64,000 nucleotides of DNA from a virus (IMGVR_UViG_3300027278_000003), one strand, 5' to 3'. Positions 38,987 to 59,812 are shown, numbered from the stretch's first letter. A program made the numbers and translations. The notes: a model not told the origin generated them from the sequence alone.

Positions 38987-39651
38987 TGTTAAATTTCTGG
39001 AACTGGCCACGACGAAGCGATGAAAAAGCGATTGAAATCGAAAGTCCAGTTGAGGAAATAGAGAATGACACAACTCACTATCTTTTCATTCACGGCGCAA
39101 ATCAGTCTAGGCTTTCTTGGAACTGCATCATACACTTGTTGCAACCACAAAATTATACAACGCTAGAATACAACACCAACAATCGATTCTTTGACAATCT
39201 AGACATGCTTTCAGAACAGATTGCAAACATAGATGTAAAGATGTTTATAGTTGGACACTCACTTGGTGGTATTTACGGTCTACATCTTTACAATCTACAC
39301 AGAGACAAGTTTAAAGGTGCAGTTACGGCAAGTACCCCATATGGTGGAAGTCGAACCGCAGACTGGGCGAAATATATGGTCCCAGGTTACCCTTTATTCA
39401 AAGAAATTGGCGTTAGAGCAAAGCCAATTTCAGAACTAAAGAACATCAAAATTGAAATCCCTTGGACGCAAATCGTTACAACACGTGGTGCAACGCCGTG
39501 GCACGGCGGCGCAAACGATGGGGTTGTTACTTATGATAGTATGACCCTACGTGACGATATGCAGTATATAGAAGTTGCTGAAAATCACTATGAAATCCTA
39601 GCGTCAGACGATACAGTAGAAATAATAAAAAAACTTGCAACAAAAACTTGA
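38983..39651 (+). CDS. alpha/beta hydrolase
   Basis: FIHGAN, GHSLGG nucleophile elbow, NDGVV, NH. Confidence 0.85.
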   Translation: MMLNFWNWPRRSDEKAIEIESPVEEIENDTTHYLFIHGANQSRLSWNCIIHLLQPQNYTTLEYNTNNRFFDNLDMLSEQIANIDVKMFIVGHSLGGIYGLHLYNLHRDKFKGAVTASTPYGGSRTADWAKYMVPGYPLFKEIGVRAKPISELKNIKIEIPWTQIVTTRGATPWHGGANDGVVTYDSMTLRDDMQYIEVAENHYEILASDDTVEIIKKLATKT

Positions 39652-39675
39652 CATCCCAACGAATCATGCTATATT
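39648..39675 (+). promoter_or_regulatory. early promoter with CGAATCA in spacer
   Basis: TTGACA-N6-CGAATCA-N3-TATATT. Confidence 0.8.
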
Positions 39676-39707
39676 AATAGAGTAGTCGGAAAAGAGAGGA
39701 CTTCTCA

Positions 39708-39857
39708 ATGCGTGAAATGATTGAAAACTACATCAAAGCATGTGAACAAAACATCGCCAACTATATGTTGATTGAAGATGCCGATGAACGTCAACGTGCG
39801 CTTGATGCCGCATATGGCATGAAAGCAGATTTCGAAAAAATGCTGGAGACTCTCTAA
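39708..39857 (+). CDS. small early protein (49 aa)
   Basis: GAGG RBS, TAATG coupling. Confidence 0.6.
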   Translation: MREMIENYIKACEQNIANYMLIEDADERQRALDAAYGMKADFEKMLETL

Positions 39858-39997
39858 TGTACACTGTTGAATACGGTTTCTACAACTATCCCCGTAAAAC
39901 AAAAACATTTGACACCTACGCTGCTGCGAAAGGTTTCTTTTACGCAATGTCGCGTAAGAACGGCGTCAAGCGTGTAGAACTTAAGGAGGCTGTATAA
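39857..39997 (+). CDS. small early protein (46 aa)
   Basis: Coupled at both ends. Confidence 0.6.
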   Translation: MYTVEYGFYNYPRKTKTFDTYAAAKGFFYAMSRKNGVKRVELKEAV

Positions 39998-40194
39998 TGT
40001 TCAATAAGTTTCTTGAAAATATGAGGTATGGTGTGTCTCTTGATGAAAACAAGTATCCTGACGACACAATTAACTGGGACTTTGTTGATGCCGATATGTA
40101 TGCGAAGTGGAGCGTTCTGATTGATGGCGAAACATACACTCAATGGTTTGAAAAAGTTGCAGACGAAATCGAAGGAGTTGAAGATACAGCATGA
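39997..40194 (+). CDS. small early protein
   Basis: AAGGAGG RBS. Confidence 0.65.
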   Translation: MFNKFLENMRYGVSLDENKYPDDTINWDFVDADMYAKWSVLIDGETYTQWFEKVADEIEGVEDTA

Positions 40195-40345
40195 ACTTCA
40201 TAAGACAATTTTCTTTCTGCTTTGGTTAGAACGAGACGACCCGTCCGCGATGTATGCTACCTATACAGTGACGGAAGCAATCGATGCGCTGGCAGACATT
40301 ATGGGTGTAGACTCAACTAAACTACGGGAGTTGACAGATGCGTGA
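40178..40345 (+). CDS. small early protein
   Basis: AAGGAG RBS, TTG start. Confidence 0.5.
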   Translation: MKIQHELHKTIFFLLWLERDDPSAMYATYTVTEAIDALADIMGVDSTKLRELTDA

Positions 40346-40562
40346 GGCGATTGTTACTAAAGAATGGGGCGAAGTTGGCTTTGGCAGCAACAAGCGTGAT
40401 GGCTGGGCCTGGGAGGTTGCGTTCTTTGCAAGTGGTGACGAAGATGCAATTGATCGTCACTACTACAACACGGAACTTGCAGCACAGAATGCTGCCAATC
40501 TTTTTGAACGTGGCTTGTATTACACCGGTGAATACGGTGTCGTAGAATTTGAGGTTTGTTAA
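40338..40562 (+). CDS. small early protein
   Basis: GGAG RBS. Confidence 0.6.
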   Translation: MREAIVTKEWGEVGFGSNKRDGWAWEVAFFASGDEDAIDRHYYNTELAAQNAANLFERGLYYTGEYGVVEFEVC

Positions 40563-40801
40563 TGCAAGATTTCATCAATACATATATCGCAGGAAATGGT
40601 TGGATCGGGGTCGCGTTGGGTCTCGCAATTTTTGCTATGGGATATTGGAGGGGACTTTCCAGAGTAAATAAGATTGCACCTCTTATCATTGATGCAACGA
40701 TTGCCGATCTTATCGAAAATGGTTTCGTTAAGACCAGGAAGCGTCTTGAGGACGGTGAATGGAAAGAGGAGTTGTTACGCCATGATGAAGAAGAAGTTTA
40801 A
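40562..40801 (+). CDS. small membrane protein
   Basis: N-terminal hydrophobic helix. Confidence 0.6.
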   Translation: MQDFINTYIAGNGWIGVALGLAIFAMGYWRGLSRVNKIAPLIIDATIADLIENGFVKTRKRLEDGEWKEELLRHDEEEV

Positions 40802-40982
40802 TTTCACATCTTATGACGATATATCAGAGGACCTAGTTGGCTATGTTCTCACTATTTCGAATGAAGAAAAAATCACAAATCTAACTCTAGAAGAAATCAA
40901 CGATTTTTTGAACGAAGTTGATGAACACTTGTCCGACGATTGGGCGTGGCAAGATAGCGGCATAGAAATGGGATTTTATTGA
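40782..40982 (+). CDS. small acidic protein
   Basis: AGGAG RBS. Confidence 0.5.
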   Translation: MMKKKFNFTSYDDISEDLVGYVLTISNEEKITNLTLEEINDFLNEVDEHLSDDWAWQDSGIEMGFY

Positions 40983-41164
40983 TACCTAATACCAAAGAGT
41001 AGGATACACAGTGACTTGCAAAAATACAGTATTTTTGAGAGACATAATTTTTGAGCATCTTCCAGAATTGTTCCCCATGATGTCTTCCCGGCAACTCGCA
41101 TGGAGGACGGTGCAAAAATCGATACCGCGCCAAAAACTTTTTCTACTTTTTTTGCTGTAAGTTC

Positions 41165-41193
41165 TTGACAGATACCGCGAATCACTATATAAA
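41165..41193 (+). promoter_or_regulatory. early promoter with CGAATCA in spacer
   Basis: TTGACA-N7-CGAATCA-N3-TATAAA. Confidence 0.8.
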
Positions 41194-41225
41194 GTATATG
41201 TAAGTTGATGAAAAGGGAATGAGAC

Positions 41226-41573
41226 ATGAACTACGAATTCGACACCGCGATCAATGAACTTTTGAACACGATCAAATCTGACTATTATCGTTACACTTCG
41301 CGCAACGGCACCCGCGAACTCACTGACATTAACAAGCGTATGATTGACGAATTCAATGCCGAACTTTCTGTTGAAGAAGGTCGCAAGTATGTAAAAGTGA
41401 TCAAAGGTGGTTCTGTTTGGGGTTTCATTGTCAAAGCAGACGACAAGAAATTCAAAGCAGGTGACATTCTGAAAGCTGCATCGTGGGCTTCTCCTGCAAA
41501 GAACAAAGCGCGTGGCAATATCCTTGAAGGCAACTTCTCTTGGGTTCAGTGGACTGGTCCTGCATATCTCTAA
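41226..41573 (+). CDS. conserved early phage protein
   Basis: 115 aa; GDILKAASWASPAKNKARGNI. Confidence 0.7.
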   Translation: MNYEFDTAINELLNTIKSDYYRYTSRNGTRELTDINKRMIDEFNAELSVEEGRKYVKVIKGGSVWGFIVKADDKKFKAGDILKAASWASPAKNKARGNILEGNFSWVQWTGPAYL

Positions 41574-41606
41574 TAAATAAAAACACTAAAGACTAAGGAG
41601 AATAAC

Positions 41607-41930
41607 ATGTCTGCAATTGAATATGAAAACAGCGGTGATGTAGATATTGTAGGTACTTCATTGATGGGGTATATCGGAACATCATACAATGAACTAGAAG
41701 TCGCTTTTGGAAATCCAACCTACTACTATGCTGAAGGTGCCACAACTGTGGAATGGGTTCTGCAATTAAAAGTACCAAATGGTGGCGACTTCGACTATGT
41801 AACCGCTACGATCTATGACCGCCACGAGGATTTCACACCACTGCAAGATAAAGACAAAGAAGGTGTTTGGTATATTGGCGGGTTTGAACGTGCATCAGTG
41901 GATGCAGTATATATGGCAATGGGACGTTGA
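41607..41930 (+). CDS. hypothetical protein
   Basis: AAGGAG RBS. Confidence 0.65.
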   Translation: MSAIEYENSGDVDIVGTSLMGYIGTSYNELEVAFGNPTYYYAEGATTVEWVLQLKVPNGGDFDYVTATIYDRHEDFTPLQDKDKEGVWYIGGFERASVDAVYMAMGR

Positions 41931-42157
41931 AAATGCAAATTGAAGGTTTGACTTCGGAGCAAGTAGAACTACTTGATAAAATGTGGTCGATAGATACTCA
42001 TACCGAGTTGTCAGCATGGTTTAACACGTTAACTGAAAAAAAACACCAAGAGGCAATGGTTCTTCTAGAGTTGATTGAACTTGCGGCGATTGATGATCAA
42101 GTAGATGAAGACCAAGACCTAACCATCGCAAAACTGATGTTGAATAGCATTCTCTAA
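41927..42157 (+). CDS. hypothetical protein
   Basis: TTG start overlapping previous stop. Confidence 0.55.
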   Translation: MKMQIEGLTSEQVELLDKMWSIDTHTELSAWFNTLTEKKHQEAMVLLELIELAAIDDQVDEDQDLTIAKLMLNSIL

Positions 42158-42174
42158 TTTTCATAAATACTAAT

Positions 42175-42870
42175 ATGAAAATTTATGAGATTGTTTCAGA
42201 AGCAAAACTAGAACCAGACTACGATTTCTTAGCTCAAGTTGAGGAAATCGTTGATGATGCTCTGGAAGAATATGCAGAATTCCTAGCAGATAATGACGAC
42301 AAAGACGACATTGATGAACTGGAAGAAATCCTAAATTCAAACAACTATGATGAATTACCAATTGAATTCATCGCTGACCATCACCCGCGCAAGGACCCAG
42401 ACGAATGGCTTAGTGCCGCGGCAGACTGGGATCCAAAAGAAGGTAAGAGCGTAAGAGTATTCTTACATGCTAAAAATCTTGAAGGTGTATATGGTCCACA
42501 AACATTCAAAAAAATTCTAATGCGTATGTTAGCCCATGAAACAATTCACTGGGGACAATACGATAAATTTGACCCGAAAGTATTGGACACTTACAAGAGT
42601 GGTTATATGAAGGGTGTAGAAAAAAAGAAGTCAGGCGGAACTGACCGTGACCTAATGCGTATGTATTTGCGTGATCCACACGAATTAATGGCATATGCAC
42701 ATGACCTCGCGGATGAAATGCGTGATACTGACAATCCTGAGGATGCACTACGCAACCCAGAGAAATATATTAAAGAACTGCCTGTATATCAGCGTTTCCG
42801 TCAGAGTTTTCCACGTGACGCGAAACAAATCAAGCAATTGATGAAATATACAGCAGGATACTTTAATTGA
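42175..42870 (+). CDS. late protein with HExxH zincin-like motif, probable head-internal protein
   Basis: Late box at 42163; MKIYEIVSEAK start; LAHETIH and ELMAYA. Confidence 0.55.
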   Translation: MKIYEIVSEAKLEPDYDFLAQVEEIVDDALEEYAEFLADNDDKDDIDELEEILNSNNYDELPIEFIADHHPRKDPDEWLSAAADWDPKEGKSVRVFLHAKNLEGVYGPQTFKKILMRMLAHETIHWGQYDKFDPKVLDTYKSGYMKGVEKKKSGGTDRDLMRMYLRDPHELMAYAHDLADEMRDTDNPEDALRNPEKYIKELPVYQRFRQSFPRDAKQIKQLMKYTAGYFN

Positions 42871-42934
42871 TTGCGCAAGTAGAAAACGATGCAATTTTGA
42901 ACAAGCGCCAGATCAAAAAACTCTACGAAATGCA

Positions 42935-43357
42935 ATGAATACTCTAACAGCAAAACAACAGAAAATCACCCGAACTCTGTTTCAACTTGCAAAAGACAAT
43001 GAGACTGCAACAAGAGCGAAACTTGTTGCAGCCGTTGTGTATAAAAATCAGATTATTAGTTTTGGTTTCAACAGCAAAAAATCACATCCATTTGTCATTC
43101 CATTTCAAAAGAATGAAGACGCAATCTATCTACATGCAGAGACAGACGCAATCAAAAACGCATTGCGTACCATTGGTGTAGATCAACTTGCGAAATGTGA
43201 CTTATATGTCGTGAGAGCAAAATACACAGACAAAAATAGATCAAATGCGCAACTTGGAATGGCAAAACCATGTAAAGGGTGCGCAAAATGCATCAGTCAG
43301 TTTGGGGTCAAGCGCGTTATCTATTCGACTGATGAACAAAGCTATGCATTTTTGTAA
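42935..43357 (+). CDS. zinc-dependent cytidine/dCMP deaminase-fold protein
   Basis: HAE..PCKGC. Confidence 0.8.
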   Translation: MNTLTAKQQKITRTLFQLAKDNETATRAKLVAAVVYKNQIISFGFNSKKSHPFVIPFQKNEDAIYLHAETDAIKNALRTIGVDQLAKCDLYVVRAKYTDKNRSNAQLGMAKPCKGCAKCISQFGVKRVIYSTDEQSYAFL

Positions 43358-43399
43358 TATCTACAGTTAATTCTACTATATCTTGTGTCTAAATACATA

Positions 43400-43497
43400 T
43401 GTAGGCATGACGCCTACACTAAAGATGGTGCGCCCTGCACCATTCTCTAGTCCTCTTCGCCAACTGACCCGGTAGTCTAAGACTATCGGGTCTTTTT
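43400..43497 (+). ncRNA. putative late small RNA: two hairpins, anti-SD linker, terminator
   Basis: TAAATA at 43390; TGTAGGC/GCCTACA; ATGGTGC/GCACCAT; TCCTCT linker; GACCCGGTAGTC-TAA-GACTATCGGGTC-TTTTT. Confidence 0.55.
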
Positions 43498-43548
43498 GTT
43501 AATATACGACAATTCTATCACCAACATGCTAAATAAGTTTAATACAAA

Positions 43549-43640
43549 TAGACGAAGCCCCTTCTGAGTTAGTAGTTGGCCCGCCGGGCAATACAACTCA
43601 GAGGTCTTCTAATAGATAATGGGGCATAGACCCCATACAT
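43549..43640 (+). ncRNA. second putative structured small RNA
   Basis: TAAATA at 43530; TTCTGAGTT/AACTCAGAG rod capped by GCCC-GCC-GGGC; ATGGGG/CCCCAT hairpin. Confidence 0.45.
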
Positions 43641-43712
43641 TCTATAGGTATTATCGTTTTGGCGAACGAGGGAAATAAAAATTCAATGCAAGCGGATGTA
43701 ATCTGCATTGAC

Positions 43713-43741
43713 AATCTTCGCCATTTAGATTATATTAATAG
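43713..43741 (+). promoter_or_regulatory. sigma70 promoter of putA
   Basis: TTGACA-N17-TATATT. Confidence 0.65.
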
Positions 43742-43755
43742 TAATTGAGGCGAAT

Positions 43756-46608
43756 ATGAAGTGTTATCCACATAATGAGTATTACAGAGTTGAGGAAGCG
43801 GAGATACTTCCTAAACTAATTTTGGCTACACGAATTGCCAAGACTGAAAGAGAACAAATTCTTGCAGCGGCAACTGAAATACAGTCAAAATTAAATGAAA
43901 CTCACTATGTTCACAAAGTTATGAAAGCGTACAATCTGTCTGGTACAGAGGGTATGGCACTTATGACATTGTGCGAAGCACTTCTACGCACACCAGATGT
44001 TGAAACCCGCGACAAACTTATCAAAGAAAAACTAAGCCGCGCACAGTGGAATCAGATTGCAGAAAATTCATTCTATGCAACAATCTCAGGTATCGCATTG
44101 ACAAAAGCACAGAGTTTTGCAGCATATGACACTGTTGTGAAGCGCATGGGTTGGCCAACAGTAAGAACGATGGTCGAAGAAGTAGTCAAAGTGATGGGCA
44201 CCATCTACGTGATGGGAGAAACGATCACAAAAGCCATAAAAAAGAAACAAGTAGACTATTCTTATTCGTTTGATATGCTAGGCGAAGCAGCATTGACTTG
44301 GGAAGACGCAAATGCATATTACGAAAAGTACATTGAAGCCTCTACACAATTCAAAGATTCAATATCTGTAAAACTCAGTGCAATCCATCCACGATATGAA
44401 TTGCGTAACTATCAAGACGTTGTTCAAACCCTTGTTCCCCGCCTTGCAGCAATTGCAAGAGTGTGTGAAGAACATGGCACAACTATGTTTATTGACGCAG
44501 AAGAAAGTTACAGACTTGATCTTAGTATTATGGTACTTGAAGAACTGCTAAAGACACACCGATTTAAAAAGAAAACTATCGGATTCGCAGTACAAGCATA
44601 TCAAAAACGTGCGTTTTGGGTAATCGACACGTTAGAAAGCATTGCAAGTGAAGCATCAACACAAATTGCTGTTAGACTTGTCAAAGGTGCATATTGGGAC
44701 ACTGAAATTAAACTTGCACAACAGCAAGGATTGCACTACCCAGTATTCACACGTAAAGAATTCACAGATATTTCATATCTTGCATGTGCAAGAAAACTAA
44801 TGCAATCTAAATTCATTAGTCCAGCATATGCGACACACAATACATTCACCGTGGCAGCCATTTATCACTACAACACAGATATAGGAGGTGATTTCGAATT
44901 TCAGAAATTATATGGCATGGGGAACGGTCTATTCGACCACATAAAAGAACATTACGATGCTAGTGTTCGTGTTTATGCTCCCGTAGGTGAATATAAAGAC
45001 CTGCTTGCGTATCTTGTGCGCAGACTTCTAGAAAATGGAGCAAACACAAGTTTCGTATTTAACCAGCAAGTAGTTGATCCTTTCGTTGAAGCAAAGCAGG
45101 TAAAGGACAACTTGCCATCTTATCTAGATTTATATGGTAAGAGAAAGAATTCGAACGGATATGATCTAACTGATGTAGACAAAATCATGTCGATACCACA
45201 TTCCGAGACAGTAGATTTCATAAATCGTGAAGGATACAATTTAGAAGAGTCTCTGGCGGTATTAACGTCTAAAACGAATAGTTGGAAAGCAAAGACATTT
45301 GCAGAACGAAAGTCGGCAGTACTTGCGTATGCTGATTATCTTGAAGAACATCTAATAACCGCAGCAAAGACAATCACAGATCACGCATATAAAACATTTC
45401 CAAACTCTATCGCAGAAGTACGTGAAGGTATCGACTTCATTCGATATTATGCAGAGGTTGCGGAACAGATGTATGATACTAAAGATACTGAATTGCGCGG
45501 TTACACTGGCGAGTACAACAAAACATCATACGAAGCACGTGGAACATGGATGGTGATTTCTCCGTGGAACTTCCCATTTGCTATTATGGTTGGGCCTGTC
45601 ATTGCGGCGTTGTTGGCGGGCAATACGGTCTTAGTTAAATCTGCGCCACAGACACAAGTTGTAGCAGACATAACAATTGGATGTATGTTAGTTGTGGGTA
45701 TACCGACGGATGCAATACAATTCTGTGATCCAAATCCAAGTGAAGCAGAAAAAGCATTGCGCGATGAACGCATCAATGGAGTTACGTTTACTGGTTCGCA
45801 TCCAACAGCAAAGCGTATACAATGTGTTCTTGCCGAGCGCGATGGGCCTATCATTCCGTTCATTGCAGAAACGGGTGGTATTAACTGTATGATTGCAGAC
45901 AGCACTTGTTTGCCAGAACAATTAGTCAAAGATGTACTAGTTGGAGCATTCGACAGCGCGGGACAGCGTTGTTCTGCTACTCGCTTCTTGTTTGTACAGC
46001 GTGACAACTCTGAAATCATTCTGAAAATGCTAAAAGGCGCAATGAAAAATCTTGTGCTTGGCTTCCCCGACGATTTAAACACTGATGTGTCACGCGTTAT
46101 TGATGGCGCAGCGTATCAGCGCATACAAGAACGTATCGCAGTATTAGAAGAACATGAAACTCTTATTTCTACTAAAGGTAGAAATGGTGCAGAACTACCA
46201 AAGCTAACAGTTGCGCCAAGCGCGTATCTTGTTTCTGATTACAAGAAGTATTTTGACAAAGAAATCTTTGGTCCGCTCTTACATGTGTATGTATATGACG
46301 CAGATGAATTAGATGAAATTATAGAATTTATGAATGCTACTAAGTTTGGACTAACGCTAGGTATACATTCTCGCATTTCATCGTTGTATGAACACATTTC
46401 GTCAAAACTAAACGTAGGAAACATATACGTCAATCGTGATCAAGTTGGTGCAGTTGTAGAAACGCATCCATTTGGTGGTGTTGGACTGTCTGGCACAGGA
46501 CCAAAAGCTGGTGGACCTGATTATCTACGTTCATATGTATGGGAAAAGCATATCTGCATCAATACAACTGCTATTGGCGGCAACACTGTTCTACTTTCTT
46601 CAAAATGA
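43756..46608 (+). CDS. putA: bifunctional proline dehydrogenase / glutamate-semialdehyde (P5C) dehydrogenase
   Basis: FDMLGEAA, SVKLSA, IDAEE, RLVKGAYWD, ATHN, YLVRRLLENGAN; ALDH part FTGS, ETGG, SAGQRCSA, EIFGP, FGGVGLSGTG. Confidence 0.95.
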   Translation: MKCYPHNEYYRVEEAEILPKLILATRIAKTEREQILAAATEIQSKLNETHYVHKVMKAYNLSGTEGMALMTLCEALLRTPDVETRDKLIKEKLSRAQWNQIAENSFYATISGIALTKAQSFAAYDTVVKRMGWPTVRTMVEEVVKVMGTIYVMGETITKAIKKKQVDYSYSFDMLGEAALTWEDANAYYEKYIEASTQFKDSISVKLSAIHPRYELRNYQDVVQTLVPRLAAIARVCEEHGTTMFIDAEESYRLDLSIMVLEELLKTHRFKKKTIGFAVQAYQKRAFWVIDTLESIASEASTQIAVRLVKGAYWDTEIKLAQQQGLHYPVFTRKEFTDISYLACARKLMQSKFISPAYATHNTFTVAAIYHYNTDIGGDFEFQKLYGMGNGLFDHIKEHYDASVRVYAPVGEYKDLLAYLVRRLLENGANTSFVFNQQVVDPFVEAKQVKDNLPSYLDLYGKRKNSNGYDLTDVDKIMSIPHSETVDFINREGYNLEESLAVLTSKTNSWKAKTFAERKSAVLAYADYLEEHLITAAKTITDHAYKTFPNSIAEVREGIDFIRYYAEVAEQMYDTKDTELRGYTGEYNKTSYEARGTWMVISPWNFPFAIMVGPVIAALLAGNTVLVKSAPQTQVVADITIGCMLVVGIPTDAIQFCDPNPSEAEKALRDERINGVTFTGSHPTAKRIQCVLAERDGPIIPFIAETGGINCMIADSTCLPEQLVKDVLVGAFDSAGQRCSATRFLFVQRDNSEIILKMLKGAMKNLVLGFPDDLNTDVSRVIDGAAYQRIQERIAVLEEHETLISTKGRNGAELPKLTVAPSAYLVSDYKKYFDKEIFGPLLHVYVYDADELDEIIEFMNATKFGLTLGIHSRISSLYEHISSKLNVGNIYVNRDQVGAVVETHPFGGVGLSGTGPKAGGPDYLRSYVWEKHICINTTAIGGNTVLLSSK

Positions 46609-47213: not shown

Positions 47214-47276
47214 TACTTGTAAATTGTATTATAATAGTGTATTATGAAATATAACCTAAAACAATAAGAGGACATA

Positions 47277-47684: not shown

Positions 47685-47711
47685 TAACATTAAATAAAAT
47701 AGAAAATAGCA

Positions 47712-51587: not shown

Positions 51588-51600
51588 AGTGGTAATAGAC

Positions 51601-51939: not shown

Positions 51940-51940
51940 T

Positions 51941-52872: not shown

Positions 52873-52881
52873 GAGGATATT

Positions 52882-53067
52882 ATGGCAAAAGAATCTCAGC
52901 CAATAGACCATATTGTAATTGGTCTGGACGATGCAACCCCCAACACAATGCAAGAAGCAAACAAGCGCCGTTGGAAGATGTGGTCAGAATTCATGACTGT
53001 TCAACGTCTACAAATTATTCTGCTTTCTGCTATTCTGGCGGTTGAACTTGTACAGTTGCTAAAATGA
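52882..53067 (+). CDS. small protein with C-terminal hydrophobic helix
   Basis: GAGG RBS. Confidence 0.55.
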   Translation: MAKESQPIDHIVIGLDDATPNTMQEANKRRWKMWSEFMTVQRLQIILLSAILAVELVQLLK

Positions 53068-53300
53068 GCGAATGGCTGCGGCGACTAATCGCCAAACATA
53101 CTGAAAAACAATTTCAAGAAAAACGAATTGACGTTATCAATGACATGTGCTATACAAGTAGACACGATTTTGGTCTTGTCAAGAATCCAGACCGACCATT
53201 GGAAAGTGGCATGACAGAAGCAGAACGTGAGTTTCTGTGGAATGAAATGGCACAAATATTTGATAATTGTATTGCACCAAAGATGGATTTCAAAAAGTGA
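53064..53300 (+). CDS. hypothetical protein
   Basis: Coupled ORF. Confidence 0.55.
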   Translation: MSEWLRRLIAKHTEKQFQEKRIDVINDMCYTSRHDFGLVKNPDRPLESGMTEAEREFLWNEMAQIFDNCIAPKMDFKK

Positions 53301-53509
53301 AACTCCAAGTGACTGAATTTAAAATTCATGAAAATGGATATTTTGAAGAAATATTTGCAGTCAAGAAACATGCATATATTCCAAGAAAAATGTCAAGTGG
53401 TCATTGGGTCTGGAGAAAACCATACTATAGAATTTGTATCGTAAATGAACCAATGCATTTTTATGAAGGTGAATCATACACAAGCTATCAATGGATGGAT
53501 GAATCGTAA
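53297..53509 (+). CDS. hypothetical protein
   Basis: GTGA overlap. Confidence 0.5.
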   Translation: MKLQVTEFKIHENGYFEEIFAVKKHAYIPRKMSSGHWVWRKPYYRICIVNEPMHFYEGESYTSYQWMDES

Positions 53510-53559
53510 TTTGCCTATTTTACATTACTAAACGCTGATAACACAGGGAAACTATAAAG

Positions 53560-53708
53560 TGACAAGACAACTCGCAGATTTTATCACTGCTGAAATTGAT
53601 GATTTAGGTGATCTAGTGATTACTTTTGATGATAATGATGAATATTTTGAAATGAGTGTTCCTGCACGTGATGTGCTTGAAATGCTACGGGAGTTTTTTG
53701 ACGAATGA
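53560..53708 (+). CDS. small acidic protein (about 49 aa; coordinates approximate)
   Basis: GTG start, ATGA overlap with clamp loader. Confidence 0.45.
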
Positions 53709-54634
53709 AAGAGCTATGGGTAGAAAAGTATCGTCCGAAATCTGTAAAAGATTACGTGTTTCGTGACGAAAAACAAAAGAAGCAAGTACAGTCATGGGTT
53801 AGTAGTGGTGCTATTCCACATTTGCTATTTTCTGGTGCTGCTGGTACTGGCAAGACCACACTTGCAAAAGTTCTGCTAAATGAACTTGGCGTTGACGGTG
53901 GCGACATTATGATGATCAACGCATCAAACGAAAACAATGTTGACACAATGCGAACAAAGATCAATGGCTTCGCAAGTTCCCTACCATTCTCTGGCGATTT
54001 CAAATATGTGCTACTAGACGAAGCCGATTATCTATCTCCAAACGCACAAGCGATTCTACGTAACATGATGGAAACATATAGTTCAACTTGTCGTTTCATT
54101 CTCACGTGTAACTATCCAAACAAAGTGATCCCTGCTATCCACTCCCGCTGTCAGGGTTATCACATTGAAAAACTAGACAAAGAAGAATTTATGGCACGTG
54201 TTGCAACTATTCTTATCAGTGAAGGTGTTGATCTAGACATTGAAACTCTGGACATTTATGTTGCTGCAACATATCCCGATCTACGCAAATGCACAAACAT
54301 GGTACAGCAAAGTGTCGTTGATGGCGTGCTACAAGCACCAGGTGCAGGAGAGAGTGGCGAGAGTGATTGGATTCTCGAATACGTTGCAATGTTCCAAATT
54401 GGTAATATTGCAGGCGCACGTAAGCTAATTGTTGAAAAAGCGCGGCCAGAAGAATATGAAGGTGTTTATCGTAAACTATATGAAAACATCACAGATTGGT
54501 TTGGGCCAGACGAAAAGACTATCGGGCGTGCATTACTTTGCATTCGTGACGGTCTAGTCAATCATGCACTTGTTGCTGACCCAGAAATCAATTTGAGTGC
54601 AACACTCCTTGAACTTCAATATATTGCGAAATAA
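53705..54634 (+). CDS. sliding-clamp loader AAA+ subunit (RFC small subunit/gp44-like)
   Basis: WVEKYRP, GAAGTGKTT, LLDEAD, SRC. Confidence 0.95.
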   Translation: MKELWVEKYRPKSVKDYVFRDEKQKKQVQSWVSSGAIPHLLFSGAAGTGKTTLAKVLLNELGVDGGDIMMINASNENNVDTMRTKINGFASSLPFSGDFKYVLLDEADYLSPNAQAILRNMMETYSSTCRFILTCNYPNKVIPAIHSRCQGYHIEKLDKEEFMARVATILISEGVDLDIETLDIYVAATYPDLRKCTNMVQQSVVDGVLQAPGAGESGESDWILEYVAMFQIGNIAGARKLIVEKARPEEYEGVYRKLYENITDWFGPDEKTIGRALLCIRDGLVNHALVADPEINLSATLLELQYIAK

Positions 54635-55048
54635 ATGGACGAAGAATACGAACCACGAATTATCATGACTGACAACGAGTATGCACAATATAGATTGTTG
54701 CTACATCGTGAGCTTGCTACTATTGCAGAAAACCGTGATCCGCCGAGTCCATTTAGACCATTGCTTGAAGAAGGTTACAATCTAAAAATTGTAGTAAATC
54801 ACACAAATGATCTTCCTTGGGTGATTGAAAGATTTGAAGAAAAAATTATAAACGGCGATTATGAACACGTAATCATTGGCGACCCAAAAACACTAGGATA
54901 CAGCATGGATACGCTTGATCGACTACTTGAAGATCGGGATGTGTCTGCAACGTATTATAAAAATAAAGAATGGATTATTTTTTTGCTAAATATAACAAAG
55001 AACAATAAACTTGTTATTGAACAATCAAAAATAATTGTAGAAAGATAA
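54635..55048 (+). CDS. hypothetical protein
   Basis: Coupled ORF. Confidence 0.55.
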   Translation: MDEEYEPRIIMTDNEYAQYRLLLHRELATIAENRDPPSPFRPLLEEGYNLKIVVNHTNDLPWVIERFEEKIINGDYEHVIIGDPKTLGYSMDTLDRLLEDRDVSATYYKNKEWIIFLLNITKNNKLVIEQSKIIVER

Positions 55049-55050
55049 TA

Positions 55051-55374
55051 ATGGCAAAAAACGCATATATCGTATTGCAGCATATGTATGTCCCTGCAAA
55101 AGGTGAGAACACCAGTATGAAAAACTGGGGTGAACTCGGAAAAAACACAATGGTTGAGGAAATCTACTTCGTTACACGTATTCGTAAACGTTGGTGGCAA
55201 ACCGCAACTACTATCGTAAATCTAACAGAACGTAAAATTGAAAAGAACAGTGCGGAAACAACTGACTACAATCAGATTGTACAACACGTGATGATTAAGT
55301 ATCCAGCACAATATAACTCATTCATCGATGAATGCCGCGAATCAGGTTTGATCAACAAAGGTGCAAAAGAATGA
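55051..55374 (+). CDS. hypothetical protein
   Basis: 107 aa. Confidence 0.6.
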   Translation: MAKNAYIVLQHMYVPAKGENTSMKNWGELGKNTMVEEIYFVTRIRKRWWQTATTIVNLTERKIEKNSAETTDYNQIVQHVMIKYPAQYNSFIDECRESGLINKGAKE

Positions 55375-55814
55375 GCCGTATCTTAAAGAGAAAATTTCAA
55401 TCAATTCATAACATGCCATCATATAAAGTGATAGGCACCGTATCTCCTGAGATTATGAAAAAACTAACCGACCTCACTGTTAACAAAAACACAGAGGTAG
55501 CGCAAGAAATCGTTACTGCGATTACACAAGTGCTAAAAGCAAATATCACTGGTATGGCAGCAGATGCGTATGTTGAACCGTTCGAAACAGATTGGATCAA
55601 CCGTTTGAATTACGAAACTCCTACTGGTATTTTCTATTTGATTTCAGAGGGTGATGCTGATATCCAGTTCCCTAAAGAATCTGTAAAAATACAACCAGGA
55701 AAAGTTTATTTTGTGGATGAACGTCAAACATTTAAAATAAGTTCACCAAACAACACACGCGTGTGCTTAATGAGCGGACGTTTCACTTGGAACAAAGAGG
55801 TTCACGGAGACTAA
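55371..55814 (+). CDS. hypothetical protein (cupin-like)
   Basis: ATGA overlap. Confidence 0.5.
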   Translation: MSRILKRKFQSIHNMPSYKVIGTVSPEIMKKLTDLTVNKNTEVAQEIVTAITQVLKANITGMAADAYVEPFETDWINRLNYETPTGIFYLISEGDADIQFPKESVKIQPGKVYFVDERQTFKISSPNNTRVCLMSGRFTWNKEVHGD

Positions 55815-56617
55815 TGAAAAAGTTTATCGTTTCACTATTCGTTTCATTATTTGCAACGATTTTGTTTGCCGGTACTACCGGCGAACTACCAGTGGACGAT
55901 AAGCGCGGGTGGTGGTTTGAAACTATTGACTTGGATGCAAGAGATTACGCATATGATGTTGTCACCGATAATACTCGGAAAGGTGAGACCGGTCTGCGTT
56001 TTGAATTGCGCGATGGTGATTGCTATACCGCATATCCAGAAAATCCAAGCAGTGGTTGGGATGACTGCACCCGTGACCGTGAACGCAGTGAAATCCGTGA
56101 ACGTTGGAATCCAATTCTGGATAAGAGTGTTTGGTATGCATTTAGTATCTTCATTCCAGAAGATTACGAACCAATGTATCCAAAGCAAATCTTCTTCCAA
56201 TGGCACGGCGGTCCTGCACCAACAATCTACTATCATCTAAACGAAAATAAGTTTCATGTTGATATTCTAGCAGAGGTTGGACAGACCACTACACAATACA
56301 CATTTGGAGACAACATTCTCACACTCGGAGAATGGCATGACTTCGAAGTCAATATTGTTTGGAGTGCTAACGAACAAAATGGCAAGATGCTACTTTATGT
56401 AGACGGTGTGCGTCTTATCGAATATCGCGGTCCCACTATGCCACAAGAAGTTTATGATGCAGGCGAAGGTCCACAAGTAAAGTTTGGCATCTATCGTTCA
56501 CATCTGTCACGTTGGTCAGAAGATCGTCCGCACCCAACGCATGTTCTTTACTTTGATGAATATCGTCGTGGCTATAATCATACTGACGTTGATGTTGACA
56601 ATTACACAGGTGACTAA
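55814..56617 (+). CDS. exported polysaccharide-lyase-like beta-jelly-roll protein
   Basis: Signal peptide; ERSEI, IFFQWH, KFGIYR motifs. Confidence 0.7.
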   Translation: MKKFIVSLFVSLFATILFAGTTGELPVDDKRGWWFETIDLDARDYAYDVVTDNTRKGETGLRFELRDGDCYTAYPENPSSGWDDCTRDRERSEIRERWNPILDKSVWYAFSIFIPEDYEPMYPKQIFFQWHGGPAPTIYYHLNENKFHVDILAEVGQTTTQYTFGDNILTLGEWHDFEVNIVWSANEQNGKMLLYVDGVRLIEYRGPTMPQEVYDAGEGPQVKFGIYRSHLSRWSEDRPHPTHVLYFDEYRRGYNHTDVDVDNYTGD

Positions 56618-56919
56618 TGCCTGTAGATTTACACGGATATAAAATTCACAGTGCGTGGAGAGAGTATCGAAAAGCAACGCAAGATTGCTACTTTAAAGGT
56701 GTAAAAAAATTACAAGTAATAACTGGTCATGGAGTAATGCAACGAGAATTTCTCGGTTGGGTAGACGCTGACCCGTATGCAGTATCCGCCGCAAGACTTG
56801 ACCCGAATAAAGGTGCATGGACTGTTTACATCAAACGTAAAGAAAATCAGCCGAAACCAAAACCAATCGAACAGTTAAATCTCAAAGAACTTTATAAACA
56901 TTTTAATAAAAGTTCTTGA
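56617..56919 (+). CDS. stand-alone Smr-domain protein
   Basis: VDLHG and VITGHG. Confidence 0.75.
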   Translation: MPVDLHGYKIHSAWREYRKATQDCYFKGVKKLQVITGHGVMQREFLGWVDADPYAVSAARLDPNKGAWTVYIKRKENQPKPKPIEQLNLKELYKHFNKSS

Positions 56920-56944
56920 CATCCTCTGCGAATCATCATATAAC
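56916..56944 (+). promoter_or_regulatory. early promoter with CGAATCA in spacer
   Basis: TTGACA-N7-CGAATCA-N3-TATAAC. Confidence 0.8.
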
Positions 56945-56976
56945 ATACATGTGATGAACAAATAGAGGACATTCTA

Positions 56977-58581
56977 ATGAATATCAAACTTTTTAAATCG
57001 CTTGTTGCTACTACGTTTCTAGTATCCGCAGGCTCAGCGGTAATTGCAGGACCGACAGAAGTTCGACAAGTGCAGGCAATGCTAAACTTTATCGGATATG
57101 AGTCCGGTCCTGCGGATGGAGTCGCTGGTCGTCGTACTAACGCAGCGGTAGAGAAATTCTACCGAGATCGTGGTCAAGTATTTGACGGTACAATCGATGG
57201 TAATGAGGTGGACTTCATTAAACTAGAAGCAGAAGCAAAGGGTTATGCAACTCAAGAACTTTGGTCATCCGATACGATTAACAACTCGCAATCAAACTTA
57301 CCTTTATTTGTGAGCAATTATTACAATAATTTCCCATCTGGTGGGAATATGCGATTCCGTGAAATGTACGGCGGCACAAACTCTTGGGCGGCCGCTCTGG
57401 CAGATTTCGACTACGATGGTGATGGAATTCGTGATAAAGTTATCGCTGTAGTTGCAGAAGCGGATAACCGTTCAAAGCAGGAATATGGCGAATCAGACCG
57501 GGAATACGGTCTACGTGGACGTTGTGATGGTGAGTGTGAATTCTCAACCTTCTCTGGTGTAATTTTCCTTAAAGGGCAGGGGAATGGAGAGTTTCGTTAT
57601 GTTCCGGGTGCAATCGTTGAAAATCCCGATAATATGATCGAATACGGGCATCAGATCGAAACTGCTGATTTCAATGGCGACGGCAAACTTGATATTATTG
57701 TCACAGACCACGGACTAGACCACTGGCGCGACGATTTTGTTGGACGTACTTTAAAATATTTCTTGTCTCAGCCAGATGGGACATGGCGTGAAAGTTCAGC
57801 AACGCATATGAACGGTGGTCGCCATTGGCGTAACTTCAACCATGGTATTACAGTCGGTGATATTGATAGCGATGGCGACATCGATATCGTAGAAACATCA
57901 ATTGCGCGGAACAACCAAGCATACCTTTGGTGCCGCATTAATGACGGTGCGGGGAATATGACACCTCGCGCATGTGGTGGGCGTGGAACCGGTTGGGGTT
58001 TGGCAGCAGAGGACTTCGATGGTGACGGCTGTATTGACGTTGCTCAAGTAGGCACTGGCGGGGAACGTTATCACTTCACTGGGATCAATTGGGGTAACTG
58101 TAGCGGGCGATTTAATGGTGCTACGACACGCATTAATGACCACGATGGACGCAAGGACGACCCAAACAATTGGGAAGGAACTGTAAATGTTTGGTCACAC
58201 GACCTAGACGGTGATGGCGACAAGGATCTTATCGTAAGTCGTATTGGCACTTATTATGTGGGCGGCGCATTCCAGATCGTTGAAAATCTTGGAAACCGCA
58301 AATTTGAAGATCGCGGTATTTTTGTCTACAATGCTCCTCCGGAAACCGCAGCTGGCGTACGGTCATGTCACGATAATTCGGAAGCCAATCCGTGCAACCT
58401 AACAGTAGATCGTCTGTACTTTATTGATGTAAATAACGACGGTATCGATGATCTTGTTACTACAAGCGGCGCAGCACATGTAAACGGCTTGGTTTGGATC
58501 AATAACGGTAACTACGAATTTAATCAGACTTCGGCGCGTGATCTTCGTATTGCTCCCGCGATGCATCGTCGCGACGACTGA
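56977..58581 (+). CDS. exported protein: peptidoglycan-binding domain plus FG-GAP/VCBS repeats
   Basis: Signal peptide; VQAMLNFIGYESGPADGVAGRRT; repeats DFDYDGD, DFNGDGKLD, DIDSDGDID, DFDGDGCID, DLDGDGDKD, DVNNDGIDD. Confidence 0.85.
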   Translation: MNIKLFKSLVATTFLVSAGSAVIAGPTEVRQVQAMLNFIGYESGPADGVAGRRTNAAVEKFYRDRGQVFDGTIDGNEVDFIKLEAEAKGYATQELWSSDTINNSQSNLPLFVSNYYNNFPSGGNMRFREMYGGTNSWAAALADFDYDGDGIRDKVIAVVAEADNRSKQEYGESDREYGLRGRCDGECEFSTFSGVIFLKGQGNGEFRYVPGAIVENPDNMIEYGHQIETADFNGDGKLDIIVTDHGLDHWRDDFVGRTLKYFLSQPDGTWRESSATHMNGGRHWRNFNHGITVGDIDSDGDIDIVETSIARNNQAYLWCRINDGAGNMTPRACGGRGTGWGLAAEDFDGDGCIDVAQVGTGGERYHFTGINWGNCSGRFNGATTRINDHDGRKDDPNNWEGTVNVWSHDLDGDGDKDLIVSRIGTYYVGGAFQIVENLGNRKFEDRGIFVYNAPPETAAGVRSCHDNSEANPCNLTVDRLYFIDVNNDGIDDLVTTSGAAHVNGLVWINNGNYEFNQTSARDLRIAPAMHRRDD

Positions 58582-58603
58582 GTGTAGAAAATATGAAAAA
58601 ATG

Positions 58604-58629
58604 AAAAGACCCTTCGGGGTCTTTTTTTT
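58604..58629 (+). terminator. intrinsic terminator
   Basis: AAAAGACCC-TTCG-GGGTCTTTTTTTT. Confidence 0.92.
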
Positions 58630-58630
58630 G

Positions 58631-58659
58631 TTGACATACTACACGAAACACATTATACA
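58631..58659 (+). promoter_or_regulatory. early promoter, variant spacer CGAAACA
   Basis: TTGACA-N7-CGAAACA-N3-TATACA. Confidence 0.7.
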
Positions 58660-58677
58660 TATGCTGTAACAAGGACA

Positions 58678-58908
58678 ATGATGATGCGAAATCTAACACA
58701 ACTTGAAGAAGACCTTTTTGATCTTGCAGAAAAACTTGGTGTTGGCACGAAAAGCAGTGATGTATGTCTACGAGCCATTCGCAAGATACAAGAACTTGAA
58801 GGCGAAGTAACTGATCTTACTGCTAAGAATACTCGTATGAGTTGGGAAGTAAATCCTGATCGTATGGGCGGAATGTTTACTCGCGAAGAACTGAATAGGG
58901 ATGAATGA
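58678..58908 (+). CDS. small early protein
   Basis: AAGGA RBS. Confidence 0.6.
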   Translation: MMMRNLTQLEEDLFDLAEKLGVGTKSSDVCLRAIRKIQELEGEVTDLTAKNTRMSWEVNPDRMGGMFTREELNRDE

Positions 58909-59147
58909 TAATGACTTTTTGGGCTACACTATGGTATGCGGGTGCGGTTGTATTAACACTTGGGGATGAAGGACAAACCGAAGACGAGTGCAATATGATC
59001 GGACATCAAATAATGTATGACATTACAACTCCGTATTCAGACCCAGAAATGGAAGAAGTTTTGGCGGAAAGTCCATTCCCTACTCACCAGTTTTCATTCT
59101 CTTGTGAAAAAGAAATGCTTCCGATTGACGAAAAATATCGCAAATAA
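58905..59147 (+). CDS. small early protein
   Basis: ATGA overlap. Confidence 0.55.
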   Translation: MIMTFWATLWYAGAVVLTLGDEGQTEDECNMIGHQIMYDITTPYSDPEMEEVLAESPFPTHQFSFSCEKEMLPIDEKYRK

Positions 59148-59150
59148 TTC

Positions 59151-59179
59151 TTGACAGTTTGTACGAATCGCGCTATACA
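59151..59179 (+). promoter_or_regulatory. early promoter with CGAATCG in spacer
   Basis: TTGACA-N7-CGAATCG-N3-TATACA. Confidence 0.8.
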
Positions 59180-59207
59180 TAGTATGTAAGAAAAAAGAAA
59201 GAGACAA

Positions 59208-59780
59208 ATGACTGAAAAACTTATTTTGACCGACTGCGATGGTGTTCTTCTTGATTGGGAAGTAGCGTTTGAGCAATGGATGGAACAGCATGGGCACAAG
59301 AAAGTTGTCCAAGCAACGTATGATATTTCTACCACGTACGGTATCGACAAAGCCGAAGGCAAGCGTCTTGTTCGTGAATTCAACGAAAGTGCGTGGATGG
59401 GATTTCTTCCTGCGTTTCGTGATGCCCGGAGCGGTGTTGCAAAACTTGTTGAACAAGGCTACAAGTTTGTTGTTATCACTTCGCTTTCACTTGACGAAAA
59501 AGCCCGGATGCTACGGATCAGCAACTTGAAAAACATCTTTGGTAAGGATGTGTTCGTTGATGTTATCTGTCTTGACACTGGTGCAGACAAGGACGAAGAA
59601 CTTGTAAAGTACGCGGGTACTGGTCTGCGGTGGATCGAAGATAAGCCAGAAAACGCTGAATGCGGGTTGAAATACGGATTGAAGCCGATCTTGATTGAAC
59701 ACAATCACAACCGTGATCACGATGTTGAAGGCATTGAATACGCAGAAGATTGGGACGATATCGTTTCCAACTTGATTTAA
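59208..59780 (+). CDS. HAD-family 5'(3')-deoxyribonucleotidase-like phosphatase
   Basis: LTDCDGVL motif I, VITS, WIEDK. Confidence 0.85.
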   Translation: MTEKLILTDCDGVLLDWEVAFEQWMEQHGHKKVVQATYDISTTYGIDKAEGKRLVREFNESAWMGFLPAFRDARSGVAKLVEQGYKFVVITSLSLDEKARMLRISNLKNIFGKDVFVDVICLDTGADKDEELVKYAGTGLRWIEDKPENAECGLKYGLKPILIEHNHNRDHDVEGIEYAEDWDDIVSNLI

Positions 59781-59783
59781 CAG

Positions 59784-59812
59784 TTGACACACTCTGCGAA
59801 TCGCTCTATAAA
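59784..59812 (+). promoter_or_regulatory. early promoter with CGAATCG in spacer
   Basis: TTGACA-N7-CGAATCG-N3-TATAAA. Confidence 0.8.

What the first reader, a model, noticed from the sequence alone, without database searches (positions are those of the whole stretch)
39648..59812. Early promoters carry a CcrM/GcrA-type GANTC site at a fixed position in the -35/-10 spacer
Seen: five promoters have TTGACA-N7-CGAATCR-N3-TATAnn (41165, 56916, 59151, 59784; N6 at 39648), and one has the variant CGAAACA (58631). The tRNA, putA and enzyme-island promoters lack it. On the opposite strand the motif reads CGATTCG or TGATTCG. Established: GANTC is the CcrM methylation site of Alphaproteobacteria, and GcrA is a sigma70-binding activator that prefers methylated sites. 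From memory its extended motif is YGAKTCK-like, which both variants fit. Inference: early host-takeover genes may depend on host GcrA/CcrM, tying early transcription to methylation or cell-cycle state. Alternatively the site binds a phage-encoded activator or repressor.
Basis: partly seen in the sequence, partly recalled or inferred. Interest (0 to 1): 0.8.

Follow-up and report, generated by a model that had tools for sequence, protein, structure and literature searches.

The report
GcrA-type box in phage promoters
A marine jumbo phage and its relatives put the exact best binding site of GcrA, the cell-cycle transcription cofactor of alphaproteobacteria, at one fixed spot in about half of their host-type promoters, so early phage transcription probably depends on this host factor, though this has not been tested experimentally.

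Summary
Five window promoters read TTGACA-N7(N6)-CGAATC(A/G)-N3-TATAnn, and a sixth carries CGAAACA (5 pattern matches against 0.02 expected by chance).

In two related IMG/VR contigs the same arrangement occurs 20 and 26 times, with zero control hits. Across 89 well-supported promoters, 40 have GANTC centred exactly at -19, always as GAATC in one orientation. The 7-mer is CGAATCA in 34 of the 44 sites centred at -20 to -18.

CGAATCA is the reverse complement of TGATTCG, the published optimal GcrA site. GcrA boxes are reported at -20 +/- 1 in the spacer, with the same strand orientation in the PcsM structure.

The host is uncultured, but two lines point to an alphaproteobacterium:
- Relatives carry an alpha-type permuted tmRNA.
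- The window's tRNA-His lacks G-1 and has A73.

An unrelated roseophage-like contig uses the same box, which favours a host-encoded reader. No GcrA or CcrM gene lies in the window, and a relative's CcrM-like methylase lacks CcrM's recognition loops.

Box promoters also mostly lack T at -7 (9/44 against 32/45 for promoters without the box).

Methylation, GcrA dependence and early timing are untested. Other first-reader notes of this scan describe the same motif elsewhere in this genome.

The parts
39648..39675 (+). Box promoter: -35 TTGACA 39648-39653, 16-bp spacer, box CGAATCA 39660-39666, -10 TATATT 39670-39675. It drives small ORFs of 49, 46 and 65 aa starting at 39708.
41165..41193 (+). Box promoter: -35 41165-41170, box CGAATCA 41178-41184, -10 TATAAA 41188-41193. 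It drives the DUF7717 gene 41226-41573 and the genes after it.
56916..56944 (+). Box promoter: -35 56916-56921, box CGAATCA 56929-56935, -10 TATAAC 56939-56944. It drives the PG-binding/FG-GAP gene 56977-58581.
58631..58659 (+). Promoter of the same class with a degenerate box: CGAAACA at 58644-58650, so no GANTC. It keeps -10 TATACA without T-7 and the TGTAAC start region, and follows a terminator. It is in effect a natural point mutant of the box.
59151..59179 (+). Box promoter: box CGAATCG 59164-59170, -10 TATACA 59174-59179. It drives the gene 59208-59780 (phrog_420, function unknown).
59784..59812 (+). Box promoter: box CGAATCG 59797-59803, -10 TATAAA 59807-59812. It drives small ORFans from 59839.
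43708..43736 (+). Comparison: the sigma70-like putA promoter without a box (-10 TATATT, T at -7 present). Other promoters without the box lie at 13692, 15596, 25943, 26178, 29541 and 52814.
29456..29531 (+). tRNA-His(GTG) with T at -1 (29455), A73 (29528), a U1.G72 pair and a 9-nt D loop. This is a marker for a host among the alphaproteobacteria whose tRNA-His lacks G-1.

Best explanation
The window belongs to an uncultured marine jumbo phage whose genome, by this scan's own notes, runs at least 300 kb beyond the window. Its host is most likely an alphaproteobacterium of the group whose tRNA-His lacks G-1, that is Rhodobacteraceae, Rhizobiales, Caulobacterales, Hyphomonadaceae or SAR11.

About half of its host-type (sigma70) promoters form a distinct class. 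They have a perfect -35 TTGACA and a 17-bp spacer. They carry (C/A)GAATC(A/G) at -22..-16, a -10 TATA(A/C)(A) that usually lacks the key T at -7, and a conserved T-R-T-A at the start site.

The spacer element is a GcrA box. The host sigma70 cofactor GcrA travels with RNA polymerase bound to sigma region 2. Its N-terminal domain docks on the TGATTCG element, which here lies on the template strand on the face of the spacer away from the polymerase. This helps the polymerase bind and open these otherwise sub-optimal promoters. If GcrA behaves as in Caulobacter, activation is strongest when the GANTC adenines are N6-methylated by CcrM.

Shown here: the motif, its fixed position and orientation, its conservation across relatives and in another phage lineage, and the alphaproteobacterial host markers.

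Inferred: GcrA binding, methylation, early timing, and any coupling to the host cell cycle or to phage DNA replication.
For: (1) The motif is far beyond chance in the window. Relatives G001 and G003 have 20 and 26 hits against 0 in the controls, and 45 of those 46 are GAATC in one orientation.

(2) Across 89 promoters, 40 have GANTC centred at -19. The 7-mers of the 44 sites centred at -20 to -18 are CGAATCA 34, CGAATCG 4, AGAATCA 4 and CGAATCT 2. All but the last two fit YGAKTCK on the other strand.

(3) Literature. The GcrA consensus is TGATTCG/YGAKTCK, and sites in the GcrA regulon are narrowly centred at about -20 (PMC4647560). Boxes lie at -20 +/- 1, and the PcsM scaffold has GAATC at -22..-18 (PMC9976885). 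All seven bases of TGATTCG contact the GcrA DNA-binding domain (PMC5887438).

(4) Host markers. Relatives carry alpha_tmRNA. The window's tRNA-His has no G-1 and has A73.

(5) A GcrA gene from a marine Rhodobacteraceae genome (L160) keeps all the base-contacting residues R33, N34, I37, G38, H41 and R42.

(6) Contig L088 encodes a T7-like primase-helicase and a family A DNA polymerase. The ten highest-ranked hits that name a bacterial host are all phages of Rhodobacteraceae or Rhizobiales. It has three promoters of the same architecture.

(7) Box promoters have T at -7 in 9 of 44 cases, against 32 of 45 for promoters without the box (p = 2e-6). This fits an activator that promotes open-complex formation.

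(8) GANTC is about 2-fold under-represented in coding sequence and relatively enriched between genes, as in CcrM-bearing alphaproteobacteria (PMC3973325).

(9) No phage GcrA or sigma70 region 2 gene was found in the relatives.
Against: - There is no experimental evidence of any kind: no methylome, no transcription start sites and no RNA data.
- The host is unknown, and the tmRNA search did not resolve a lineage.
- The cultured jumbo relatives that infect alphaproteobacteria, Atu_ph07 and Phosso, lack the motif.
- In 401 sampled alphaproteobacterial genomes the composite pattern is at background: 6 hits against 11 control hits. Host chromosomes therefore do not visibly use this exact arrangement.
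- Rapidly replicating phage DNA may not be methylated by a cell-cycle-restricted CcrM. The only CcrM-like methylase seen, in relative G001, lacks Arg44, Pro45, Loop-45 and the C-terminal domain.
- The relatives are only 42-56% complete, so a phage-encoded reader could lie in unseen DNA.
Confidence: 0.6

Rival explanations
1. The box is the operator of a phage-encoded DNA-binding protein. This could be an activator, a repressor that shuts off early genes, or an unrecognised GcrA-like protein that happens to read the same 7-mer.
For: The box is invariant and tightly positioned, as operators are. phiCbK-like phages do encode GcrA homologues (PMC3556154). The window covers only 64 kb of a much larger genome, and the relatives are 42-56% complete.
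Against: No Pfam GcrA match was found in G001-G005, and translated searches with one marine GcrA and Pfam on the one candidate ORF found nothing credible in the window. The same architecture occurs in L088, a roseophage-like lineage with a different replication module and almost no proteins shared with the jumbo clade. An accidental match to one of the 16 YGAKTCK-type 7-mers out of 16,384, at -20 +/- 1 and in the PcsM orientation, is improbable.
Confidence: 0.2
2. The box is an intrinsic promoter element read directly by host RNA polymerase or its sigma factor, or it acts through spacer DNA shape. No extra factor and no methylation would be involved.
For: It sits next to the extended -10 region and co-varies with an unusual -10 that lacks T-7 and with a conserved start site. 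The composite is not seen in the sampled alphaproteobacterial chromosomes.
Against: No spacer element with this sequence is known to me for sigma70-type polymerases. The 7 bp coincide exactly with the sequence contacted by the GcrA DNA-binding domain. Promoters without the box, with the same -35 and spacer length, coexist in the same genomes.
Confidence: 0.1
3. The GANTC is there for its methylation alone. It might serve as a self-mark, or as a switch read by another m6A-sensitive host protein such as a MucR-type silencer, rather than by GcrA.
For: GANTC is depleted elsewhere in the genome and enriched between genes. Relatives carry beta-class N6-adenine methylases.
Against: CcrM has no flank preference, yet the flanks (5' C, 3' A/G) and the central A are fixed. 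The phage methylases are not CcrM orthologues and are not orthologous to each other. The position at -19 is the one specific to GcrA.
Confidence: 0.07

Closest known systems
GcrA-activated, CcrM-methylated sigma70 promoters of Caulobacter crescentus (for example PcsM and the -20 class of the GcrA regulon)
   Same: The 7-bp element is identical (TGATTCG on the template strand). It has the same location in the -35/-10 spacer, centred at -19 against -20 +/- 1, and the same strand orientation as GAATC at -22..-18 in PcsM. The core promoter is sigma70-type.
   Different: Here the promoters are on a virulent-type jumbo phage and make up nearly half of its sigma70-like promoters. The core elements are E. 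coli-like (TTGACA/TATAnn) in 35-40% GC DNA. The box is far more uniform than in the bacterial regulons. There is no clear downstream (+5..+30) class. Methylation and GcrA dependence are untested.
phiCbK-like Caulobacter phages that encode a GcrA homologue
   Same: These are phages of alphaproteobacteria that engage the GcrA module (PMC3556154).
   Different: Those phages carry the regulator gene. Here no GcrA gene was found, and it is the cis element that is multiplied across the phage promoters.
T4 MotA/AsiA-dependent middle promoters
   Same: This is a phage promoter class defined by an extra conserved element upstream of a sigma70 -10, in a T4-related replication background (clamp loader).
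   Different: The MotA box replaces the -35 element at about -30. Here the -35 is perfect in 44 of 44 promoters and the extra element lies at -19. MotA and AsiA were not searched for. This comparison rests on textbook knowledge.
Lambdoid PR' late promoters with a Q-binding element in the spacer and a sigma-dependent proximal pause
   Same: A factor-binding element lies between -35 and -10, and there is a conserved sequence at the start of the transcript.
   Different: The downstream T-R-T-A does not resemble a -10 element. There are dozens of these promoters per genome rather than one. They occur in unrelated lineages. This reading was considered from memory and set aside.

Membership tests
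GcrA-box (GcrA/CcrM-dependent) sigma70 promoter | Extended GANTC motif YGAKTCK, optimum TGATTCG | tested here: met
   CGAATCA, the reverse complement of TGATTCG, makes up 34 of the 44 sites centred at -20 to -18. 42 of the 44 fit YGAKTCK. The consensus is taken from PMC4647560 and PMC5887438.
GcrA-box (GcrA/CcrM-dependent) sigma70 promoter | Box centred at -20 +/- 1 (or -30 +/- 2, or +5..+30) relative to the start site | tested here: met
   40 of 89 promoters have GANTC centred at -19, taking the -10 hexamer as -12..-7. Start sites are predicted, not mapped.
GcrA-box (GcrA/CcrM-dependent) sigma70 promoter | Core promoter recognised by the housekeeping sigma factor | tested here: met
   TTGACA, a 17-bp spacer and TATAnn are followed by a ribosome-binding site and a start codon. 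No phage sigma70 region 2 gene was found in the relatives.
GcrA-box (GcrA/CcrM-dependent) sigma70 promoter | Host encodes GcrA and CcrM, that is, a non-rickettsial alphaproteobacterium | tested here: inconclusive
   The host is uncultured. Indirect markers are alpha_tmRNA in relatives and a tRNA-His without G-1 and with A73 in the window. CcrM is conserved in those clades, including SAR11. A marine Rhodobacteraceae GcrA keeps the base-contacting residues.
GcrA-box (GcrA/CcrM-dependent) sigma70 promoter | N6-methylation of the GANTC adenines on the template | not testable with these tools
   Only assembled contigs of DNA runs are available. No kinetic or raw long-read data can be reached.
GcrA-box (GcrA/CcrM-dependent) sigma70 promoter | Transcription stimulated by GcrA | not testable with these tools
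   This needs in vitro transcription or genetics. No RNA holder was listed.
CcrM orthologue encoded by the phage | Beta-class DPPY methylase with conserved Loop-2B (Arg44, Pro45), conserved Loop-45 and a C-terminal DNA-binding domain | tested here: not met
   There is none in the window. The 288-aa methylase of relative G001 keeps DPPY, but it aligns Asp and Ala at Arg44 and Pro45, has a divergent Loop-45 and has no C-terminal domain. Its NCBIfam CcrM score is 98 bits against a cut-off of 830.
Phage-encoded GcrA (Pfam PF07750) | A match to the GcrA family | tested here: not met
   No match in G001-G005. In the window, translated searches with one marine Rhodobacteraceae GcrA gave only a chance-level hit, in a cytidylyltransferase-like ORF. 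The genomes are incomplete.

The most novel reading that the evidence does not exclude
The boxes act as a methylation timer. The injected genome arrives fully GANTC-methylated, so host GcrA-RNAP fires the box promoters at once, and preferentially in hosts where GcrA is abundant. Phage replication then outruns CcrM and produces unmethylated copies. On those copies the same promoters, already weakened by the missing T-7, fall silent. Early genes would thus be switched off without any phage repressor, while replication-coupled late promoters take over. Several unrelated phage lineages of marine alphaproteobacteria would have converged on this device.
Probability: 0.15. Interest if true: 0.88.

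Novelty: new variant of a known kind. Interest (0 to 1): 0.74.

Why it matters
GcrA and CcrM form the epigenetic arm of the alphaproteobacterial cell cycle. So far the link to phages is that some phages carry gcrA or methylase genes.

This finding is different. A whole class of phage promoters is built around the optimal GcrA box, and it appears in more than one phage lineage. If the reading is right, marine phages read their host's cell-cycle and methylation state through a sigma70 cofactor.

It would also give three practical things:
- a sequence signature for assigning uncultured phages to alphaproteobacterial hosts;
- a set of dozens of natural promoter variants for dissecting GcrA action, including the box-dead promoter at 58631 and the link to a -10 without T-7;
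- a testable route to how early genes are timed in jumbo phages that lack their own RNA polymerase.

Tried and rejected
- Megablast and blastn of the window and of a relative against cultured phages found nothing. A 59-nt promoter query gave only chance hits.
- No whole genome is held for the window, so the rest of the phage could not be searched for gcrA or ccrM.
- The nearest bacterial homologues of putA are only about 40% identical and come from mixed classes, so they say nothing about the host.
- A tmRNA BLAST against 401 alphaproteobacterial genomes gave only weak partial matches and no names.
- The composite promoter pattern in those 401 genomes is at background.
- Cultured relatives PA5oct, Atu_ph07, Phosso and Vibrio phage 2.275.O, and roseophages CRP-9, CRP-13, CRP-4 and ICBM2, show no promoter-type hits.
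- A weak translated match of GcrA to window 63308-63403 turned out to lie in a cytidylyltransferase-like ORF and is chance.
- No RNA holder was listed for the stretch.
- The lambda Q-binding-element/pause reading and the T4 MotA-type middle promoter reading were considered and set aside. The -35 is intact, the downstream element is not -10-like, and there are many promoters per genome.
- Avoidance of a GANTC-cutting restriction enzyme cannot explain the boxes. GANTC is only mildly depleted, whereas CTGCAG, GTGCAC and GCATGC are depleted 5- to 17-fold.
Full report
**1. What the window is**

The window has about 40% G+C. It carries 15 tRNA genes, ribonucleotide reductase, putA, several radical-SAM enzymes and a T4-type clamp loader.

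It has no nucleotide match among cultured phages. Its clamp loader is closest to Pseudomonas jumbo phage PA5oct (55% identity), followed by other jumbo phages. Earlier notes of this scan place findings about 300 kb beyond the window's end in the same genome.

The DNA occurs in marine, estuary and algae-associated metagenomes. No whole genome is held for the window.

IMG/VR holds close relatives:
- G001 is 155 kb and 42% complete.
- G003 is 203 kb and 56% complete.
- Shared proteins are 70-80% identical, for example putA, a 231-aa protein and the reductase.

**2.

The pattern TTGACA-N7-CGAATCR-N3-TATA matches at 41165, 56916, 59151 and 59784. It also matches at 58631, with CGAAACA. That is 5 matches against 0.02 expected by chance. 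The promoter at 39648 has the box with a 16-bp spacer.

The box keeps 4 nt to the -10 hexamer. At 39648 it is the distance to the -35 that changes. Five of the seven + strand CGAATC(A/G) sites in the window lie in these promoters.

The tRNA, putA and enzyme-island promoters lack the box.

**3. It is a genome-wide promoter class**

I searched with the looser pattern TTGAC-N9-GANTC-N4-TA.
- G001 has 20 hits and G003 has 26, all on the coding strand. The reversed control pattern gives none.
- 45 of the 46 hits are GAATC in the same orientation.

I then defined 89 well-supported promoters in the window, G001 and G003. Each has at most 2 mismatches to TTGACA/TATAAT and a ribosome-binding site and start codon within 60 nt.
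- 40 have GANTC centred exactly at -19, and 46 within -21 to -18.
- The 7-mers of the 44 sites centred at -20 to -18 are CGAATCA 34, CGAATCG 4, AGAATCA 4 and CGAATCT 2.

The class has two further marks:
- T at -7, the last base of the -10 hexamer, is present in only 9 of 44 box promoters. It is present in 32 of 45 promoters without the box (Fisher p = 2e-6).
- T-R-T-A is conserved 6-9 nt after the hexamer, about -1 to +3. Counts are 34, 44, 42 and 39 of 44.

The promoter at 58631 has all the class marks but a dead box. The genes downstream are mostly small ORFans. That is typical of early regions, but it is not evidence of timing.

**4. Comparison with GcrA**

- Haakonsen et al. report the GcrA consensus as TGATTCG, or more broadly YGAKTCK. 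Sites in the GcrA regulon are 'narrowly centered around -20', with a second broad zone at +2..+30 (PMC4647560).
- Wu et al. place the boxes at -20 +/- 1 and -30 +/- 2 in the spacer. They solved a complex on PcsM with methylated GAATC at -22..-18 (PMC9976885).
- All seven bases of TGATTCG contact the GcrA DNA-binding domain (PMC5887438).

The phage box CGAATCA is the exact reverse complement of TGATTCG. Its GAATC occupies -21..-17. As in PcsM, GAATC is on the non-template strand, so the YGAKTCK reading lies on the template strand in both.

Only 16 of the 16,384 possible 7-mers fit the consensus on either strand. A chance coincidence of sequence, position and orientation is therefore unlikely.

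GcrA binds sigma region 2 and stimulates open-complex formation. Promoters that lack T-7 are the kind that would need such help. That last step is my inference.

**5. Is the host an alphaproteobacterium?**

Two independent markers say yes.
- Relatives G001 and G002 carry permuted tmRNAs whose best Rfam family is alpha_tmRNA, at 126 and 122 bits against a threshold of 50. Their tag peptides are intact.
- The window's tRNA-His (29456-29531) has T at -1, A73 and a 9-nt D loop.

The loss of G-1 together with A73 is described only for the clade of Rhodobacteraceae, Rhizobiales, Caulobacterales and Hyphomonadaceae, and for seven of eight SAR11 strains (PMC3937112, PMC3064791).

CcrM is conserved in these groups, SAR11 included (PMC3973325). 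A GcrA from a marine Rhodobacteraceae genome keeps R33, N34, I37, G38, H41 and R42, the base-contacting residues.

GANTC in the phage follows the host-type bias. The observed/expected ratio is 0.46-0.65 in coding sequence and 0.74-1.68 between genes (compare).

**6. Host factor or phage factor?**

- No Pfam GcrA match and no sigma70 region 2 gene were found in the relatives, and translated searches with one marine GcrA found nothing credible in the window.
- The IMG/VR scan for the exact pattern returned more than 112 loci. Many belong to the jumbo clade, but some do not.
- L088 has three box promoters in 1.2 kb. It encodes a T7-like primase-helicase, a family A DNA polymerase and a reductase. 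The ten highest-ranked hits that name a bacterial host are Roseobacter CRP phages, a Lentibacter phage and Sinorhizobium/Rhizobium phages, all of alphaproteobacterial hosts.
- L101, L102 and L044 (T4-like) and L103, L090 and L027 also carry 3-5 boxes each.
- Cultured roseophage CRP-6 has one full-architecture site. Ten of its 17 (C/A)GAATC(A/G) sites are packed into its 42.4-44.9 kb control region.

Sharing across lineages favours a host-encoded reader.

**7. What weakens the case**

- Nothing here shows methylation, GcrA binding, start sites or timing, and no RNA holder was listed.
- Atu_ph07 and Phosso, jumbo relatives on alphaproteobacterial hosts, lack the motif.
- The composite pattern is at background in 401 sampled alphaproteobacterial genomes.
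- Brevundimonas GcrA shows no extended-motif preference.
- The CcrM-like methylase of G001 is not a CcrM orthologue. It aligns Asp and Ala at Arg44 and Pro45, has a divergent Loop-45 and has no C-terminal domain. It is not orthologous to the G003 enzyme, and the window has none.
- How phage DNA would become methylated therefore remains open.

**8. Verdict**

It is a new variant of a known kind: the GcrA-box promoter, here multiplied across phage genomes.

I found no paper describing this. The known link between phages and this module is that phiCbK-like phages carry gcrA homologues.

Other first-reader notes of this scan report the same motif in other windows of this genome. I did not verify those.

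Noticed in passing
window 29456-29531: The tRNA-His gene has T at -1, A73, a U1.G72 pair and a 9-nt D loop. This is the tRNA-His type without G-1 that is known from one alphaproteobacterial clade and most SAR11, so it is a marker for the host. The first pair is U.G, whereas the literature describes G1-U72.
   Followed up: yes
L117 1460-1800 (G001) and L118 1518-1877 (G002): Relatives encode permuted, alpha-type tmRNAs with the tag peptides ANNNYAPEMALAA and ANANYQPEMAMAA.
   Followed up: yes
whole window; G003 (L149-L159): Several palindromes are avoided to an extreme degree. In the window CTGCAG occurs 2 times against 34 expected, GTGCAC 2 against 25 and GCATGC 4 against 22. In G003 GTAC occurs 18 times against 1147 expected, and nine 6-mers are absent altogether. 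This suggests strong pressure from restriction enzymes, with a different pattern in each relative.
   Followed up: partly
L172 (Roseobacter phage CRP-6, MK613348.1) 42400-44900 and 918-942: Ten of the 17 (C/A)GAATC(A/G) sites of this cultured roseophage cluster in a 2.5-kb, largely non-coding end region. One full TTGACG-N7-CGAATCA-N3-TATACA site lies at 918-942. This phage and its host could serve as a cultured test system.
   Followed up: partly
L119 1339-2205 (-) in G001; L120 349-1800 (+) in G003: Relatives carry two different beta-class DPPY N6-adenine methylases. Their nearest solved structure is CcrM, but they lack its recognition loops, so their specificity is unknown.
   Followed up: partly
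window 43756-46608: A full-length three-domain PutA (DNA-binding, proline dehydrogenase and aldehyde dehydrogenase domains) is encoded on the phage. It is 70% identical over the 472 residues that relative G001's locus covers, and only about 40% identical to any bacterial homologue found.
   Followed up: partly
window 58631-58659: This promoter has every mark of the box class but reads CGAAACA instead of CGAATCA. It is a natural GANTC-null variant and would be a useful control.
   Followed up: partly
window 27745-27819: ARAGORN calls a tRNA with the anticodon CTA, labelled Pyl. It may be an amber suppressor.
   Followed up: no
window 62854-63676: An APS-kinase-like P-loop protein (62854-63273) lies next to a cytidylyltransferase-like protein with an HxGH motif (63266-63676).
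   Followed up: no
G001 and G003 promoters without the box (for example G001rc 50442, 127603; G003 128370): Some promoters without the box have GAATC(A) 11-18 nt downstream of the predicted start, overlapping the ribosome-binding region. Enrichment at +1..+30 is only about 2-fold, so it is unclear whether this is a downstream class of GcrA boxes.
   Followed up: partly
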